Of a stretch of DNA of 6,259 nt, positions 1 to 6,259 are shown in pieces. The notes below the pieces were generated by a model. The model was given only the letters and a program-made list of their open reading frames with translations. It was not told the origin of the DNA and did no database searches. How positions within the stretch are numbered: the first letter of the stretch is position 1; each line of letters starts with the position of its first letter. Both the position numbers and the translations under genes were made by a program. This DNA comes from a virus (taxonomy: Duplodnaviria > Heunggongvirae > Uroviricota > Caudoviricetes): IMG/VR virus record IMGVR_UViG_2609459844_000003, positions 1 through 6,259 of that record. The stretch is one strand, 5' to 3'.

Positions 1-1263
<1,263 letters not shown>

Positions 1264-1560
1264 TAATTAATGCTTAGAACAGGATCATATACCTGTATCA
1301 GGTCAGTCCACTCTTCACCTAAACGTGCAGATGTGTTAATCCGTCTCCCTGCTTAGCACCACTCTTTTGGTGATATACCCGTTTTGGCATAGTCGGCGAG
1401 AGACTGGTGTTGCAGCACTGTCCAGTCCTGTTTTACCATAAACCCCCTAGTTTTATCTTTTAATTAATAGATATTAGTAAGATGAATCAATGATGTGCTC
1501 AGAGCAAAGCACATCCTGCGTTGCTTTTAGTGCCATTTAACCTATAGAGAGATATGACGC

Positions 1561-1806
1561 GTGAGAAAGTTAATCTGTCTAATTTCGTTCGTTGCAACAT
1601 GCGGATTCGGGTATCAGGCATACCAGCATCATGGACTGGCTTCTCTACTGGCTTTCTTAGTCAGCTTAGGGGCTTTTCTAACTGCTGTAGCCAACTTAAT
1701 AAGTGAGAAGAAGAAGTCATCCTCTATAAGCCAAGTGATTGGTAATAACTCTTCAGGAATACAAGTCAGTGGTAATTTAACCATTAATGAAAAGGACAAA
1801 AAATGA
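1561..1806 (+). CDS. hypothetical small protein with hydrophobic segments; possibly the N-terminal part of the downstream gene
   Basis: 81-codon ORF in AT-rich DNA, GTG start with only a weak AGAGAG Shine-Dalgarno-like element. One strongly hydrophobic segment (LASLLAFLVSLGAFLTAVANLI) and a weaker one before it. The stop overlaps the downstream ATG (ATGA at 1803..1806). The C-terminal GNNSSGIQVSGN motif recurs in the N-terminus of the next ORF. Confidence 0.4.
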   Translation: MRKLICLISFVATCGFGYQAYQHHGLASLLAFLVSLGAFLTAVANLISEKKKSSSISQVIGNNSSGIQVSGNLTINEKDKK

Positions 1807-2711
1807 GTCTTTTCGATCATAAGTCGGGTCAACATGTCGGAGATGGTTCTACCGCAATCCAAGTAACCGGTGATGCTATCATTGGTAATACTACTACTGA
1901 AGTAGTTACTATCTGTGAATTAGTAGTTCAAGCACAAATGGCTTCTTTAAAAGAGGAAGCATATAAACTTGTAAACCAACGAGCGATAGAATTTGGTAAT
2001 CAGATTGCAGCTAAACTTTCTAGTGACCTTGATCATAAATTAAAAGAGAAATTATCCGACCCTGACATTCAATATTCGATGAACCAAGCTGTAACTCAGG
2101 TGGCTCGAAAAGGATTTGATGAAAAATCGGAGTTACTTAAAGAGCTAATCGTTTCTAAAATTCAAACTGAAGAAGAAGAGGATAGTATAGTTATAGATCA
2201 CGCTCTTGAGGTGACATCTAAATTAACAACAAACGACATTAAATTTCTCTCTCTAATATATTACCTCAGAAACATAAATAAGATACGAAACGGTATTAAC
2301 ATGACAGCTCTTGCTGAAAGAAATGAAACTCACTTTGGATTAATTGGCTTTACCGTAGAGCAAAACCATTCAGCCCACAAAGAATACTATGCTCGCTATG
2401 ATATTGATTACATTAAATTCTTAGATAAAATAGAGTCTTTGAGAAAAATAAACATTGATCTCCTCAGCTTAAAAGGCGTTATCTTCACAGACAAGCAATA
2501 CGTAACAAACTATCAAGACCTACTTGGAAAAAGGACTGGAATCACCAGCTTTGAAAGCGATGAGATGTTCTTTGAAACATTTCCTGCTTTAAAGTTAACT
2601 CTAGATGCATTTGGCGTATCGACCATAAATGACTTTAATTCATATGTTTTAAATCCAATTGGCGACCTGATTGCTCAAAACTTTCTTCGGGCTCGGAACT
2701 TCCTTCAATAG
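1803..2711 (+). CDS. hypothetical protein, 302 aa, no recognisable family; AT-rich accessory cargo
   Basis: A 909-nt ORF in AT-rich sequence where chance ORFs are short. ATG at 1803 with AAAGGA Shine-Dalgarno 6 nt upstream. Protein is K/E/I/N-rich. I see no Walker A, HNH, DDE or obvious HEPN signature by eye. Confidence 0.8.
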   Translation: MSLFDHKSGQHVGDGSTAIQVTGDAIIGNTTTEVVTICELVVQAQMASLKEEAYKLVNQRAIEFGNQIAAKLSSDLDHKLKEKLSDPDIQYSMNQAVTQVARKGFDEKSELLKELIVSKIQTEEEEDSIVIDHALEVTSKLTTNDIKFLSLIYYLRNINKIRNGINMTALAERNETHFGLIGFTVEQNHSAHKEYYARYDIDYIKFLDKIESLRKINIDLLSLKGVIFTDKQYVTNYQDLLGKRTGITSFESDEMFFETFPALKLTLDAFGVSTINDFNSYVLNPIGDLIAQNFLRARNFLQ

Positions 2712-2745
2712 GATAAAAATTATCGTTTGTAAACATTCGACAGAA

Positions 2746-2771
2746 AAGGGTATTTTTATTAAGATACCCTT
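2746..2771. terminator. hairpin between convergent transcription units; possible weak terminator
   Basis: Perfect 8-bp inverted repeat AAGGGTAT / ATACCCTT (2746..2753 and 2764..2771) with inner pairs possible, 35 nt after the stop of the 302-aa ORF. The stem is AT-rich with only a GGG/CCC core, and there is no clean U-tract on the plus side and only a short T-rich tail on the minus side. Confidence 0.25.
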
Positions 2772-2890
2772 CAAATCCACACTTACTACAAATATATCTA
2801 TAAAAAATAATTTAATTATCGAGATACATATCATTACATGATGTAGAGCTGAAAACTATTCAGCCCAACTTACATTTATCACATTCATAT

Positions 2891-3151
2891 TCATTTAAAA
2901 TGATTTACAACCTTAACGTCTCTGTCCTTTAACTCCATAATTTTTCCTAGTTGCTTGCGTTCCAACTCAATTTTACTGATACCAGTCAGTTGGTTATTCG
3001 CCTTCTCAATAGTAGCCAGCAGCGGCCCGATCCAGAGAACAGCCTGGCAGTATGTCAGGGAGCTGGCGGTAATGGAGTCACCACCGACTGCGTCAGCGTT
3101 ACCGGTATCGGTGTGCATTGTACAAGCATTCACCGAATGCCTGCTGTACAT
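2891..3151 (-). CDS. hypothetical protein, 86 aa (questionable)
   Basis: ORF in a locally GC-richer patch directly after the 79-aa ORF. No convincing Shine-Dalgarno before the ATG at 3151. C-terminal part is charged and helical-looking. Could be real, a gene remnant or spurious. Confidence 0.3.
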   Translation of the reverse strand: MYSRHSVNACTMHTDTGNADAVGGDSITASSLTYCQAVLWIGPLLATIEKANNQLTGISKIELERKQLGKIMELKDRDVKVVNHFK

Positions 3152-3168
3152 TCTCGGAACTCATACTT

Positions 3169-3408
3169 TCAGACAAACTGTTTCCAGATGATTTTATTAA
3201 AAATAGCCTTTCCCACCTCTAGAACCAACGCTGATACAAACATATAACCTCCAATCTCAGTCAACATATTAGAGGTAGCCCCACTAACCACTAATCCTAA
3301 ACCCCCTAACAACAAAAGTCCGATACCAGCCCAGAAAAGACTAAAGCTATGTACAGTAATTGAATAAACCAAATCTGTTAAGGCAACCTTCAGTTGAAAC
3401 TTATTCAT
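3169..3408 (-). CDS. small hydrophobic membrane protein, 79 aa, unknown function
   Basis: ATG at 3408 with GGAG Shine-Dalgarno 8 nt upstream, 67 nt downstream of the Rz stop on the same strand. Contains long Gly/Leu-rich hydrophobic stretches (FSLFWAGIGLLLLGGLGLVVSGA and GGYMFVSALVLEVG), consistent with two transmembrane helices. Confidence 0.6.
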   Translation of the reverse strand: MNKFQLKVALTDLVYSITVHSFSLFWAGIGLLLLGGLGLVVSGATSNMLTEIGGYMFVSALVLEVGKAIFNKIIWKQFV

Positions 3409-3475
3409 TATACAATCTCCATCTGCATGTTGAATTCATCCATGATCGTACTCATAAGCAGGTAGAGCTTTTCCA

Positions 3476-3982
3476 TCATTTATTCCGATAATTGTGATCT
3501 GACTCTCTCACCGAGTCGTAAATGCGCTCACACGTCATTCCCGAGCGGTAGCGTTCGTCAGCAATTGCAGCATAACGTTTAGCTTCTTCTGCAAGGCTTC
3601 CGAGCATGTCGGCGAGCACTGCGGCATCGGCTCCGACTGTTTTGCGTCTGACGGCAACGGCAAGATCTGTGGTGTGCTTTGCTGCATCCAGGCGGGTGGC
3701 AAGTTTTGTTGCTTCGGTGCGCAACTGGCTAACAGTGGCAGACAGGCCAGCAACAGTGGCAGCGGCTTTGGCGGCTTTAGCTTGAGCATCTTTTACAGCC
3801 TCATCACGGGCAATAATGCGCCCTTGTTCAATCATGCGGGCCGCAGCCTGCGCGTTCGCTACCTGCGAAGATTCCGCGCTATCACGTTCCGCCCATTTCT
3901 TTTGCCAGCCCCAGTCGCTCCAGACGCTTCCGGCAATAAACGCACAAGCCACCAGCAGAAACACAGCAAATGCTTTACTCAC
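3476..3982 (-). CDS. Rz: phage i-spanin Rz (inner-membrane spanin subunit)
   Basis: Lies immediately after the endolysin. Preferred start is GTG at 3982, overlapping the endolysin TGA stop (GTGA) with GGGGGA 8 nt upstream. N-terminal transmembrane segment [20 protein letters not shown], then an Ala/Lys/Glu-rich coiled-coil-like periplasmic region. Contains an embedded +1-frame lipoprotein ORF. The track's alternative ATG at 4045 would overlap the endolysin by 66 nt and has a poor Shine-Dalgarno. Confidence 0.8.
3535..3789 (-). CDS. Rz1: phage o-spanin Rz1 (outer-membrane lipoprotein), wholly embedded in Rz in another frame
   Basis: Begins MLKLK, as lambda Rz1 does. Lipobox LLASC (signal peptidase II site) after a hydrophobic leader; proline-rich mature part with Cys residues. 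GAGG Shine-Dalgarno 9 nt upstream of the ATG at 3789. Confidence 0.75.
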
Positions 3983-4527
3983 TGATCTATCCCCCAACAC
4001 GCCAGCGCGCTTTCCTGGTCCCGGCGGATAACCTGACCATAACATCCGTCTTTCTGGCCTTTCGTCAGCCGACAGTCACGTCCACCGTCTTTAATCCACC
4101 AGCGAATAGCCTCACATGCTCCCTTGCGGTCACCGGCATTAATTCGTTTGTAGAAAGTTGACGGGAAACATTTTCCTGGACCGATGTTATAAGGACAAAA
4201 TGACGCGATACCCACTTTCTGAGGTTCGGTCAGAGACACCTTGATATTGCGTTCCACCCATGTCAGCGCTTTGTCGCGCTCAATGGAATTTACAATGTTG
4301 CACTGCGCTTTTGTTGCCGTCATCCCTTTGACGACACGCTTACCATCGATAACCGTCACGCCACGACATAACGTCCATACTCCGCCCGGATCCATCACCG
4401 CCACCAGCGTATTACCTTCTTTCTCTTCGATAAACTGATCGAACAGTACCGGTGCTGAAGCCCCGGCAGCCAATAGCGCCAGCATGGCGGCACTAAGTTT
4501 ATTTCTTGTTCCCGGAGACATGACCAT
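3979..4527 (-). CDS. R: phage endolysin, T4-lysozyme-like (GH24) with N-terminal SAR (signal-anchor-release) domain
   Basis: 182 aa. The C-terminal two thirds closely match lambdoid/Stx-prophage R lysozymes as I recall them ([70 protein letters not shown]...[19 protein letters not shown]). The N-terminus has a weakly hydrophobic Gly/Ala-rich segment [19 protein letters not shown] typical of SAR endolysins. GGAGG Shine-Dalgarno 9 nt upstream. Confidence 0.93.
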
Positions 4528-4768
4528 TAAGGCGGTCCTCCCGTTCTTTGCGCCGGTAATACCAGTTCACGGCACAGGTGATAACAGTGCAGGCAATACC
4601 GACGATGATTGCCCAGTCACTCAGGCTGAGACCTGCAATTTTGTCGACCAGCATCCACGAAACCTCTTTCGTTGAACTGGCGTAAGCCTTAGCAGAGATA
4701 CCACAGCCTGTAAGTGTTGTTCCTGTTCCATATGAAAGCCTGCTGGAAAGTGTGCTCATTCTGGCCAT
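4499..4768 (-). CDS. S: phage holin, pinholin-like (S21-type architecture) with dual-start motif
   Basis: 89 aa, overlapping the endolysin start. N-terminus M-A-R-M gives two in-frame starts separated by a positive residue (holin/antiholin arrangement); GGAGG sits 2 nt before Met1 and 11 nt before Met4. Gly/Thr-rich weak first hydrophobic segment, strong second transmembrane segment WAIIVGIACTVITCAVNWYY, highly charged C-terminus RRKEREDRL, resembling phage 21 S pinholin layout. Confidence 0.8.
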   Translation of the reverse strand: MARMSTLSSRLSYGTGTTLTGCGISAKAYASSTKEVSWMLVDKIAGLSLSDWAIIVGIACTVITCAVNWYYRRKEREDRLNGHVSGNKK

Positions 4769-4939
4769 AACCTCCCCCTGTCCGGGAGACTGTTAACCCG
4801 GTTTACGGGTGTTAAAAAAACGCTGAATACGACTTGCCCATTTGATGCTGCAGTTATTAAGCTGACTTTTCAGCCTTTGACTGACTGAAAACCGACTAAG
4901 CCGCTCGAAGGAAAACGGTACGATGATTAAGGAGCTGAA

Positions 4940-5176
4940 ATGAAGGTTTCAAAAAAAGAGTTTGAAAAATTAAAAACAAGAGTGTGCATAGCCGAGATAG
5001 CGCTTGCTTATACACTTACAGGACTGTCATCAAAGTACCCGGAATTGAAAACTTCAGTAGTTAAGGCACTAAATGCGGATGTAAAACTGAACGAGTGTAA
5101 TAATCCTGAAGCAGCCAAAGCCATCTCAGACCTCTCAAAACTGATTGATAGCTTTACTGTCGTTGGTCCGGAATAA
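4940..5176 (+). CDS. hypothetical small protein, 78 aa, opposite-strand moron between tRNA and holin
   Basis: Strong AAGGAG Shine-Dalgarno 5 nt upstream of the ATG. Looks lower in GC than the flanking lysis genes. Predicted soluble, helical and K/E-rich. No family recognised. Confidence 0.6.
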   Translation: MKVSKKEFEKLKTRVCIAEIALAYTLTGLSSKYPELKTSVVKALNADVKLNECNNPEAAKAISDLSKLIDSFTVVGPE

Positions 5177-5263
5177 ACTCTTTCCGATAAATTCGTGGTG
5201 TTTCGACGTGTCACCAGGGATTCATACAGTTAGCTCAGAAGGCCGATGCTCTCCAGTGATGGA

Positions 5264-5340
5264 TGGTGGCCCTTGCCGGACTTGAACCAGCGACCAGGCG
5301 ATTATGAGTCGCACGCTCTGACCAACTGAGCTAAAGGGCC
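5264..5340 (-). tRNA. ileZ: tRNA with anticodon CAU, most like tRNA-Ile2 (lysidine-modified) of lambdoid/Stx prophages; may be annotated tRNA-Met
   Basis: Minus strand 5'-GGCCCTTTAGCTCAGTTGGTCAGAGCGTGCGACTCATAATCGCCTGGTCGCTGGTTCAAGTCCGGCAAGGGCCACCA-3', 77 nt. Folded by hand: 7-bp acceptor stem GGCCCTT/AAGGGCC, D-arm GCTC/GAGC, anticodon loop CTCATAA (CAT), T-arm GCTGG/CCGGC with TTCAAGT loop, encoded CCA. Anticodon arm resembles E. coli ileX-type tRNA. Confidence 0.9.
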
Positions 5341-5450: not shown

Positions 5451-5777
5451 ATGACTAAAAATACTCGTTTTTCCCCCGAAGTCCGTCAACGGGCAGTCCG
5501 TATGGTTCTGGAAAGTCAGAGCGAATATGACTCACAATGGGCGACAATTTGTTCCATTGCTCCAAAGATTGGCTGTACGCCGGAGACTCTGCGTGTCTGG
5601 GTTCGCCAGCATGAGCGGGATACCGGGGGCGGTGATGGAGGGCTCACCACCGCTGAACGTCAGCGTCTGAAAGAGCTGGAACGTGAAAATCGTGAACTGC
5701 GCCGCAGTAACGATATCCTTCGCCAGGCTTCCGCTTATTTTGCGAAGGCGGAGTTCGACCGCCTCTGGAAAAAGTGA
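5451..5777 (+). CDS. IS629 transposase OrfA, 108 aa
   Basis: [108 protein letters not shown] is near-identical to IS629/IS1203 OrfA from memory. GAGG Shine-Dalgarno 8 nt upstream. Confidence 0.95.
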
Positions 5778-6259
5778 TGCCACTGCTGGATAAGCTGCGT
5801 AAGCTGTACGGGGTCGGACCGGTATGCAGTGAACTACATATTGCCCCGTCAACGTATTACCACTGTCAGCAACAGCGACATCATCCGGATAAACGCAGTG
5901 CCCGTGCGCAGCGCGATGACTGGCTGAAGAAAGAGATACAGCGCGTATACGATGAAAATCACAAGGTATACGGTGTGCGTAAAGTCTGGCGTCAGTTGTT
6001 ACGGGAAGGTATCAGAGTGGCCAGATGCACTGTGGCACGTCTCATGGCGGTTATGGGACTTGCCGGTGTTCTCCGGGGTAAAAAGGTCCGTACGACCATC
6101 AGCCGGAAAGCCGTTGCCGCAGGCGACCGCGTAAACCGTCAGTTCGTGGCAGAACGACCTGACCAGCTGTGGGTGGCTGATTTTACTTACGTCAGCACAT
6201 GGCGGGGCTTCGTCTATGTGGCGTTCATCATTGATGTGTTTGCCGGATACATCGTGGGG
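5777..6259 (+). CDS. IS629 transposase OrfB (DDE domain), 5' part only; -1 frame relative to orfA
   Basis: ATG at 5777 overlaps the orfA stop (TGATG), with an AAAAAG run at 5769..5774. Translation [99 protein letters not shown]...QLWVADFTYVSTWRGFVYVAFIIDVFAGYIVG is open to the window end. Missing from the ORF track because it has no stop in the window. Confidence 0.9.
   Translation, partial: MPLLDKLRKLYGVGPVCSELHIAPSTYYHCQQQRHHPDKRSARAQRDDWLKKEIQRVYDENHKVYGVRKVWRQLLREGIRVARCTVARLMAVMGLAGVLRGKKVRTTISRKAVAAGDRVNRQFVAERPDQLWVADFTYVSTWRGFVYVAFIIDVFAGYIVG

What the first reader, a model, noticed from the sequence alone, without database searches (positions are those of the whole stretch)
2736..2790. 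Hairpin between the convergent cargo and late-gene transcription units
An 8-bp perfect inverted repeat (AAGGGTAT/ATACCCTT, extendable with inner pairs) lies 35 nt after the stop of the 302-aa ORF. It sits between the plus-strand cargo module and the minus-strand genes, so it could help insulate the two units. The stem is AT-rich and no clean U-tract follows on either strand, so any terminator activity is probably weak.
Basis: seen in the sequence. Interest (0 to 1): 0.2.

Follow-up and report, generated by a model that had tools for sequence, protein, structure and literature searches.

The report
Hairpin inside a decayed phage gene
The hairpin is real, but it lies in the wreck of a tiny zinc-ribbon phage gene rather than in true spacer DNA, and at most it is a modest end-of-message stem-loop for the neighbouring prophage cargo genes, which is an ordinary kind of feature.

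Summary
The inverted repeat exists: AAGGGTAT 2746-2753 pairs with ATACCCTT 2764-2771. It extends to 11 bp with a 4-nt loop and starts 35 nt after the 302-aa stop. As + strand RNA it folds at -12.8 kcal/mol. It is unusual for its 179-nt AT-rich surroundings (about 1.7% of shuffles) but not for the whole window.

It is not ancestral spacer. In relatives, a 71-74 aa zinc-ribbon gene on the minus strand ends 8-22 nt from the cargo stop (8 nt in the closest intact copies). The hairpin is its codons E-G-Y-L-N-K-K-Y-P-F. Here that gene (2938-2720) is a pseudogene with two frameshifts, two stop codons and H48Y.

The stem persists in five diverged lineages, with two compensatory pairs. Every internal wobble is G.U on the + strand. 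Codon choice makes the stem more stable than the peptide requires (combined p about 0.001-0.013). Four outgroup homologues with no converging gene lack the hairpin.

My best reading (0.42) is a 3' stem-loop of the cargo mRNA, acting as an exonuclease barrier or weak U-tract-less stop. The main rival (0.36) is a by-product of the G-Y/Y-P codons. A minus-strand terminator is unlikely because its U-rich tail is no richer than the peptide dictates. Low interest.

The parts
2746..2756 (+). 5' arm of the hairpin (AAGGGTATTTT). Read on the minus strand it is the codons (K)-Y-P-F of the ancestral small gene.
   Evidence: Searches show the arm. Codon assignment comes from intact relatives.
2757..2760 (+). 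Loop TATT. Intact relatives have a 5-nt loop. The window lost one T from the T-run 2753-2757, which has 5 T here and 6 in relatives. That loss is one of the two frameshifts of the small gene.
2761..2771 (+). 3' arm of the hairpin (AAGATACCCTT). Read on the minus strand it is the codons E-G-Y-L of the ancestral small gene.
2720..2938 (-). Pseudogene of a 72-aa zinc-ribbon protein (motifs CxxC and HxCxxC, then Y-P). Its lesions are a +1 insertion at 2901, Arg26 to TGA at 2862-2860, Gln to TAA at 2814-2812, His48 to Tyr at 2796-2794, and the -1 deletion in the hairpin loop. The ancestral stop is at 2722-2720.
   Evidence: DNA alignment with the intact copies L044 and L045; three-frame translation; family membership.
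2712..2719 (.). The true 8-nt spacer between the stop of the 302-aa gene and the ancestral stop of the converging small gene.
   Evidence: Searches show the same 8-nt gap in L044 and L045.
1803..2711 (+). 302-aa cargo gene of the LPO_1073/Vpar_1526 family (PF28206, NF045477), function unknown. The hairpin lies in its 3' untranslated region.
   Evidence: A confident all-alpha model has no PDB fold match. No PADLOC hit.
1561..1806 (+). 81-aa predicted membrane protein, the first gene of the cargo operon. Its stop overlaps the 302-aa start. It is co-inherited with the 302-aa gene in relatives.
2891..3151 (-). 86-aa chimeric ORF. It is the C-terminal relic of a lambda-type Rz spanin whose stop codon was lost (TAA to CAA), so it reads into the first 15 codons of the decayed small gene.
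   Evidence: phrog_214 positions 116-174 of 176.
3476..4768 (-). The late lysis cassette that the cargo transcript would enter antisense. It comprises holin 4768-4499, lysozyme 4527-3979, Rz (DUF2514) 4045-3476, and an embedded Rz1-like lipoprotein ORF 3789-3535.

Best explanation
The hairpin is a dual-use sequence. On the minus strand it was, and in relatives still is, the codons E-G-Y-L-x-x-K/R-Y-P-F about eight codons before the stop of a small late-operon zinc-ribbon gene. On the + strand the same bases lie 35 nt past the stop of the converging cargo operon and fold into an 11-bp stem-loop in that operon's 3' untranslated region.

Proposed mechanism (inferred, not shown): in the lysogen the cargo operon is transcribed from its own promoter. 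The stem-loop marks or protects the 3' end of that mRNA in one of two ways. It may block 3'-to-5' exonucleases after factor-dependent termination further on. Or it may act as a weak, U-tract-less pause or collision point. Either would limit antisense transcription into the lysis genes.

In this window the small gene has since decayed, so the hairpin now looks intergenic.
For: Shown:
- The hairpin folds at -12.8 kcal/mol on the + strand, and that strand is the more stable one.
- The homologous hairpin is the best local structure within 120 nt after the cargo stop in all seven loci tested that carry the small gene. In six of them it scores best on the + strand; in L033 the best-scoring fold is on the - strand. 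L047 also has it.
- On the 11-sequence alignment, 90.8% of cells pair. There are two compensatory pairs: G-C to A-U in L035, at two synonymous third positions, and U-A to C-G in L011. Versions slid by 1-3 columns pair at only 36-58%.
- All 12 wobble cells inside the stem, from about 5 independent changes, are G.U on the + strand and would be A.C on the minus strand.
- Synonymous recoding of the peptide gives a mean of -6 to -8 kcal/mol, against a native -11.6 to -12.7 (per-lineage p 0.02-0.10). Fisher's combined p over the four lineages other than the window's own is 0.0014 (codon-usage weighted) or 0.013 (uniform) on the + strand. On the minus strand it is 0.017 and 0.08.
- The Y-P half of the stem is conserved across the protein family (P invariant, Y nearly so). 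The complementary G-Y half occurs only in the subclade that converges on the cargo gene.
- Four outgroup homologues without a converging gene have no hairpin: L039, L041, L048 and L049.
- The stop-to-stop distance is only 8-22 nt, so any 3' structure of the cargo mRNA must overlap the small gene.

From the literature: a terminator needs some distance from the stop codon to escape ribosome repression (PMC4824070), and 34 nt provides this on the + strand. A nascent-RNA stem-loop is required to position RNA polymerase collisions between convergent genes (bioRxiv 10.1101/2022.10.23.513370).
Against: - No U-tract follows the stem on the + strand in any lineage, so it is not a canonical intrinsic terminator. 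The scan did not call it.
- The stem has only 3 G-C pairs.
- The peptide motif alone already supplies about half of the folding energy.
- Codon identity between lineages is only slightly higher inside the hairpin than outside it, 0.69 against 0.58.
- The lineages share ancestry, so the combined p-values are optimistic.
- Only about 5 independent lineages exist.
- The contrast with the outgroups is confounded with phylogenetic distance.
- Klebsiella (L007-L010) and Leclercia (L013) prophages carry the cargo module without this hairpin, so it is not indispensable.
- There are no transcript data.
Confidence: 0.42

Rival explanations
1. The hairpin has no function of its own. It is a by-product of the coding sequence. 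The codons Gly-Tyr (GGN TAY) and Tyr-Pro (TAY CCN) are largely reverse complements of each other, so the peptide G-Y-x4-Y-P forms a stem automatically. The pseudogene in this window simply has not yet mutated it away.
For: - Four of the six core pairs are fixed by the amino acids. Random synonymous recodings still fold at a mean of -6 to -8 kcal/mol, and 2-10% of them reach the native energy.
- P is invariant and Y nearly so across the wider protein family, so half of the stem is explained by protein constraint.
- Synonymous-site conservation is barely raised in the hairpin, 0.69 against 0.58.
- Zero substitutions in 22 stem bases of the pseudogene is not significant given its low overall divergence.
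- An 8-bp inverted repeat is not unusual at window scale.
- L040, a second pseudogene copy, already carries a stem change.
Against: - The rare codon combination GGG/TAC is kept in four lineages and is replaced by the matching GGA/TAT in L035.
- Every internal non-Watson-Crick pair is a wobble on the same strand.
- The combined codon-choice p is 0.001-0.013.
- The G of G-Y, and with it the hairpin, appears only where a cargo gene converges.
Confidence: 0.36
2. The hairpin is a minus-strand intrinsic terminator. It would stop RNA polymerase that has not been modified by the Q antiterminator when it comes from the lysis region. Stray transcription would then not run antisense through the cargo genes in the lysogen, while Q-modified late transcription reads through to the terminase genes.
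For: - On the minus strand the stem is followed by a U-rich tail in every lineage: UUUUCUGU here, UUUUUUAU in L035, GUGUUUAUUU in L033.
- In L033 the minus-strand fold reaches -17.6 kcal/mol.
- In intact relatives the late operon must cross this site to reach the terminase genes, and Q-type antiterminators are encoded upstream.
Against: - The U-richness is no greater than the P-F-L/I-S codons dictate. Six of seven lineages have p 0.17-0.88 and only L035 is low, at 0.01-0.05.
- All internal wobbles become A.C mismatches on this strand. The minus-strand fold is weaker (z -2.2) and the codon-choice signal is weaker.
- In intact copies the hairpin sits in the last third of a translated ORF, about 8 codons before the stop. 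There, ribosomes repress terminators (PMC4824070), and termination would yield non-stop mRNA.
- The scan did not call it.
Confidence: 0.14
3. The hairpin is a DNA-level element, either a cruciform or a recombination hotspot, that marks the right-hand boundary of the mobile cargo module.
For: In Klebsiella prophages (L007-L010) homology to the window ends about 25-33 nt after the cargo stop, just at the 5' arm of the hairpin.
Against: - This is a single junction.
- In five other lineages homology runs straight through the hairpin into the small gene.
- There is no second copy or matching repeat at the left boundary.
- An 11-bp AT-rich stem with a 4-5 nt loop extrudes poorly as a cruciform (my own general knowledge, not tested).
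- The strand-asymmetric wobble pattern points to RNA rather than DNA.
Confidence: 0.04

Closest known systems
Rho-independent (intrinsic) transcription terminators of E. coli and its phages
   Same: A short stem-loop placed a few tens of nt after a stop codon at the end of an operon.
   Different: The + strand has no U-tract. The stem has only 3 G-C pairs. The consensus scan does not detect it. On the minus strand the U-rich tail is explained by codons, and the site lies inside an ORF in intact relatives.
Bidirectional terminators and programmed RNA polymerase collision sites between convergent genes (Wang, Watters, Ju and Liu, bioRxiv 10.1101/2022.10.23.513370)
   Same: A single stem-loop shared by two converging transcription units. 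According to that abstract, a nascent-RNA stem-loop positions the collisions between gene boundaries.
   Different: Here the stem-loop is not between the gene boundaries of intact relatives. It lies inside the 3' coding region of one partner. The two units are active at different life-cycle stages (lysogen versus late lytic), so simultaneous convergent traffic is not evident. Nothing was measured.
3' stem-loops that stabilise mRNA against 3'-to-5' exonucleases, such as REP-type or terminator-derived hairpins (my own knowledge, not tested here)
   Same: A stable hairpin without a U-tract in a 3' untranslated region. This is the role I consider most likely.
   Different: It has no sequence relation to REP elements and no Rfam match. 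It overlaps a coding sequence on the other strand.
Phage 'morons' such as lambda bor, set antisense between the lysis genes and the DNA-packaging genes (my own knowledge)
   Same: An AT-rich, independently transcribed insert in the late region of lambdoid prophages, sitting between the spanin and terminase genes on the opposite strand.
   Different: The cargo proteins are unrelated: an 81-aa membrane protein plus a Vpar_1526 family protein of unknown function. Classic morons carry a clear intrinsic terminator and this one does not.

Membership tests
Intrinsic (Rho-independent) terminator, + strand (cargo operon) | Stable stem-loop with a 3-8 nt loop shortly after the stop codon | tested here: met
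   11 bp, 4-nt loop, -12.8 kcal/mol, starting 35 nt after the stop.
Intrinsic (Rho-independent) terminator, + strand (cargo operon) | U-tract (at least 5 U in 8 nt) directly after the stem | tested here: not met
   The tail is CAAAUCCA. The scan made no call. The U-tract is absent in every lineage.
Intrinsic (Rho-independent) terminator, + strand (cargo operon) | Transcript 3' ends map to the site | not testable with these tools
   Needs Term-seq or 3' RACE.
Intrinsic terminator, - strand (late operon) | Stem-loop followed by a U-tract | tested here: inconclusive
   UUUUCUGU follows the CCC of the stem. The stem has a C.A mismatch (z -2.2). The scan made no call. The U content is no higher than the codons dictate.
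Intrinsic terminator, - strand (late operon) | Lies downstream of the coding region it terminates | tested here: not met
   In intact relatives it lies about 8 codons before the stop of the small gene. It looks non-coding here only because the gene has decayed.
Conserved structured RNA element (selected secondary structure) | Base pairing maintained across diverged homologues through compensatory changes | tested here: inconclusive
   90.8% of cells pair, with 2 compensatory pairs; 17 of 500 shuffles reach this. Codon-choice combined p is 0.001-0.013. Only about 5 lineages are available and they are related.
Any described RNA family (Rfam 15) | Match to a covariance model | tested here: not met
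   No hit at 2700-2800 even at E up to 1.
Small phage zinc-ribbon protein family (no Pfam or NCBIfam entry) - pseudogene membership of 2938-2720 | Homology over the full length, including Y-x-C-D-x-C-x-x-G-x-M, H-x-C-x-x-C and Y-P | tested here: met
   Mean column identity is 92% in the 5-sequence DNA alignment that includes the intact L044 and L045. The motifs are recognisable across three reading frames. The family has 209 representatives at E up to 1e-3 and the motifs are conserved across it.
Small phage zinc-ribbon protein family - pseudogene membership of 2938-2720 | An intact reading frame (required for a functional member) | tested here: not met
   +1 insertion, -1 deletion, two in-frame stops, and loss of the conserved His48.

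The most novel reading that the evidence does not exclude
The hairpin is a truly dual-coding element. Selection for an RNA structure that serves the cargo operon on one strand has shaped the amino-acid sequence of the zinc-ribbon protein encoded on the other strand: the clade-specific Gly before the Tyr creates GGGTAT opposite the conserved Tyr-Pro ATACCC. The three co-diverging genes form one functional unit of a new kind: the 81-aa membrane protein, the 302-aa Vpar_1526 protein, and the converging late-expressed zinc-ribbon protein. An example would be a prophage defence or exclusion module whose late-expressed partner neutralises it during the phage's own lytic cycle. That would fit the partner's decay here, in a prophage that has lost its packaging genes to IS elements.
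Probability: 0.1. Interest if true: 0.5.

Novelty: new member of a known kind. Interest (0 to 1): 0.2.

Why it matters
The hairpin matters little on its own. Short 3' stem-loops at convergent gene junctions are common, and this one is weak.

Two modest points are useful. First, the apparently intergenic 180 nt is an unannotated pseudogene, and the neighbouring 86-aa 'ORF' is a chimera. Any annotation or regulatory reading of this gap should start from that. Second, the locus is a compact natural case in which a coding sequence and an antisense RNA stem appear to share the same bases, with synonymous-site covariation. It could be tested cleanly with stem-breaking synonymous mutants.

The surrounding module is an uncharacterised, recurrent prophage cargo and may deserve study more than the hairpin does.

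Tried and rejected
- An exact-match scan of one genome per species for the 35-nt hairpin sequence found nothing.
- A profile scan of the same collection with the cargo protein gave only 2 distant loci.
- Megablast of the region against 5,426 complete E. coli genomes matched only the IS end. A distant blastn found only 68%-identical cargo homologues in 10 genomes.
- Nothing was found in 50,697 deposited phage genomes, by DNA or by tblastn with the small protein.
- Rfam gave no family at the site. The sigma-70-like match TCGACA-17-TAAGAT at 2737-2765 is one of 6 hits against 9.6 expected, so I dismissed it.
- The cargo proteins had no PADLOC hit. The 302-aa protein had no Pfam hit in the local copy, although precomputed PF28206 and NCBIfam NF045477 name the family.
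- The AlphaFold model of the 302-aa protein is confident but has no meaningful PDB neighbour; the best E-value is 0.086, to designed helical proteins.
- The only paper containing 'Vpar_1526' is a Veillonella outer-membrane proteome, which is not informative here.
- The metagenome scan for the small gene returned only 2 loci, and P0079 had no viral locus. The comparative sample therefore stayed at about 5 lineages.
- A test for excess U in the minus-strand tail was negative.
- A test for raised synonymous conservation in the hairpin was weak.

Full report
OBSERVATION. The inverted repeat is present. AAGGGTAT is at 2746-2753 and ATACCCTT at 2764-2771. With three inner pairs (U.G, U-A, U-A) it forms an 11-bp stem, 2746-2756 with 2761-2771, around the loop TATT. 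As RNA, the + strand folds at -12.8 kcal/mol (z -4.65; 0 of 200 shuffles as good). The - strand folds at -11.5 (z -2.2), because the wobble becomes a C.A mismatch. Within the 179-nt, 26% GC gap 2712-2890, only 1.7% of shuffles contain an equally stable 40-nt fold. At the scale of the whole window, an 8-bp perfect repeat with a short loop is unremarkable: 2 are seen against 0.95 +/- 1.2 expected. The consensus terminator scan does not call the site. No U-tract follows on the + strand. UUUUCUGU follows the CCC of the stem on the - strand.

CONTEXT. The window is a mosaic, IS-flanked lambdoid prophage remnant of E. coli. The same sequence from about 750 to 5,200 is on contig ABXTAL010000006.1 of GCA_047678735.1. 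The minus strand carries holin, lysozyme, a DUF2514-type Rz with an embedded Rz1-like ORF, and a 79-aa membrane ORF. The + strand carries an AT-rich operon, 32-38% GC against 52-58% in the lysis genes. It has an 81-aa membrane protein and a 302-aa LPO_1073/Vpar_1526 family protein. In relatives from Klebsiella, Leclercia, Lelliottia, Citrobacter and metagenomes, this two-gene module sits antisense between the lysis cassette and the small terminase gene. This is a bor-like 'moron' position (my own knowledge). In intact phages the late operon therefore has to read through this site on the minus strand to reach the terminase genes.

WHAT THE 'INTERGENIC' DNA REALLY IS. In seven related loci, a 71-74 aa ORF on the minus strand converges on the cargo gene. 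It has two CxxC-type motifs and a C-terminal Y-P motif. The two stop codons are only 8 nt apart in the closest intact copies (L044, L045) and up to 22 nt apart in others. The hairpin is the codons GAA GGG TAT CTT AAT AAA AAA TAC CCT TTT, which read E-G-Y-L-N-K-K-Y-P-F, about eight codons before that gene's stop. In the window this gene (2938-2720) is a pseudogene. It has a +1 insertion at 2901, Arg26 to TGA at 2862-2860, Gln to TAA at 2814-2812, His48 to Tyr, and a -1 deletion in the A-run that forms the hairpin loop. The 86-aa ORF at 3151-2891 is a chimera. It is the C-terminal relic of a lambda-type Rz (phrog_214) whose stop was lost, so it reads into the first 15 codons of the dead gene. 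The true spacer between the converging genes is 2712-2719.

IS THE STRUCTURE SELECTED, AND ON WHICH STRAND? Gly-Tyr (GGN TAY) and Tyr-Pro (TAY CCN) are mostly self-complementary, so the peptide alone makes a stem. Synonymous recodings of the 12 codons still fold at a mean of -6 to -8 kcal/mol. The native sequences are better, at -11.6 to -12.7 on the + strand. Per-lineage p is 0.02-0.10. Fisher's combined p over the four lineages other than the window's own is 0.0014 (codon-usage weighted) or 0.013 (uniform), against 0.017 and 0.08 for the minus strand. These values are optimistic because the lineages are related.

On an 11-sequence alignment, 90.8% of cells pair, against 36-58% when the partner is slid by 1-3 columns. 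Two pairs show compensatory changes. One is G-C to A-U in L035 through two synonymous third positions (Gly GGG to GGA with Tyr TAC to TAT). The other is U-A to C-G in L011. All 12 wobble cells inside the stem, from about five independent events including the pseudogene copy L040, are G.U on the + strand and would be A.C on the minus strand. The only wobble that favours the minus strand is the outermost closing pair.

The minus-strand U-rich tail is no richer in U than the P-F-L/I-S codons dictate. Synonymous-site identity between lineages is only slightly higher inside the hairpin than outside, 0.69 against 0.58.

THE WIDER PROTEIN FAMILY. An exhaustive profile search finds 209 representatives of the small zinc-ribbon family. 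It has no Pfam, NCBIfam or PHROG name. P is invariant and Y nearly so across the family. The G-Y that supplies the complementary arm occurs only in the subclade next to the Vpar module. Four outgroup loci in which no gene converges have no hairpin at the homologous codons, with folds of 0 to -5.8 kcal/mol. These are L039, L041, L048, and L049, the last of which sits among head genes. The correlation fits a role tied to the converging operon, but it is confounded with phylogenetic distance.

MECHANISM. My best reading (0.42) is that the hairpin is the 3' stem-loop of the cargo operon mRNA. The stop codons of the converging genes are 8-22 nt apart, so any 3' structure of the cargo message has to be written into the antisense of the small gene. 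The 34 nt from the stop is enough to escape ribosome repression (PMC4824070). With no U-tract, it would work as an exonuclease barrier after termination further on, or as a weak pause or collision point (bioRxiv 10.1101/2022.10.23.513370), rather than as an efficient intrinsic terminator. Either way it would limit antisense RNA over the lysis genes. The fold, its conservation and the strand bias are shown. The effect on transcripts is inferred.

RIVALS.
- By-product of codons with no function (0.36). About half of the stability comes free from the peptide, and the sample is small.
- Minus-strand terminator sensitive to Q antitermination (0.14). The U-tail is explained by codons, the wobbles are mismatches on that strand, and in intact copies the site lies within the last third of a translated ORF, where terminators are repressed.
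- DNA-level recombination boundary (0.04). It rests on a single Klebsiella junction that ends at the 5' arm.
- Note also that Klebsiella and Leclercia versions of the module lack this hairpin, so it is dispensable.

COMPARISON AND VERDICT. The element resembles a terminator-like 3' hairpin at a convergent gene junction. It fails the defining U-tract test for an intrinsic terminator on the + strand and matches no Rfam family. I file it as an ordinary new member of a known kind, a 3'-end stem-loop at a moron boundary. The useful correction is that it lies within an unannotated pseudogene and is inherited coding sequence. Interest is low (0.2). The most novel reading not excluded is true dual coding, in which RNA structure has shaped the protein on the other strand within a three-gene prophage module of unknown function (probability about 0.1).

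Noticed in passing
window 2891-3151 (-): The 86-aa ORF is a chimera. It is the C-terminal third of a lambda-type Rz spanin (phrog_214 positions 116-174) whose stop TAA became CAA, so it reads into the first 15 codons of the decayed zinc-ribbon gene. A second, complete Rz (DUF2514 type) lies upstream, so this prophage carries relics of two lysis cassettes.
   Followed up: partly
window 1561-2711 (+) and loci L007-L013, L030-L037, L043-L047: The 81-aa membrane protein and the 302-aa LPO_1073/Vpar_1526 protein form a recurrent AT-rich module. It is inserted antisense between the lysis and terminase genes of different lambdoid prophages of Enterobacteriaceae. Its function is unknown: no PADLOC hit, and a confident all-alpha model with no PDB neighbour. 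In five lineages it co-diverges with the converging zinc-ribbon gene.
   Followed up: partly
window 5264-5340 (-): A tRNA-Met (CAT) gene lies between the lysis cassette and the IS629-like element.
   Followed up: no
window 1042-1164 (-) and 5732-5848 (+): There are strong Rfam matches inside the two IS3-family elements. One is the isrC Hfq-binding sRNA model (150 bits), inside the orfA at 849-1196. The other is the ALIL frameshift pseudoknot (116 bits), just after the orfA at 5451-5777.
   Followed up: no
window 1492-1515 (+): The only other perfect 8-bp inverted repeat in the window is GATGTGCT / AGCACATC with an 8-nt loop. It lies about 45 nt upstream of the 81-aa cargo ORF, in the divergent region toward the terminase remnant. 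It could be a terminator or an operator.
   Followed up: no
L007-L010 about 4935-4945, compared with window about 2737-2746: Klebsiella prophages carry the cargo module, but homology to the window stops about 25-33 nt after the cargo stop, right at the 5' arm of the hairpin. A different 58-aa gene follows there.
   Followed up: partly
L013 4909-5010: The Leclercia version of the module is followed by a different, GC-rich nested hairpin, GCCGGGAAAT...ATTTCCCGGC with an inner GTGCAA/TTGCAC stem, and then a T-rich stretch. Next comes a gene with a weak Acb2/Tad1-like Pfam hit. This suggests the region between the lysis and terminase genes is a hotspot for accessory genes.
   Followed up: no
window 3535-3789 (-): An Rz1-like lipoprotein ORF with an LLASC lipobox is embedded out of frame within the DUF2514 Rz gene.
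   Followed up: no
L043 2501-2719 and L040 2501-2641: Independent copies of the small gene show stages of decay. L043 has only the Arg26 to TGA stop. L040 shares the window's lesions where the fragment overlaps it (both in-frame stops, His48 to Tyr and the -1 loop deletion) and adds a Gly to Glu change that turns one stem pair into G.U on the + strand.
   Followed up: yes
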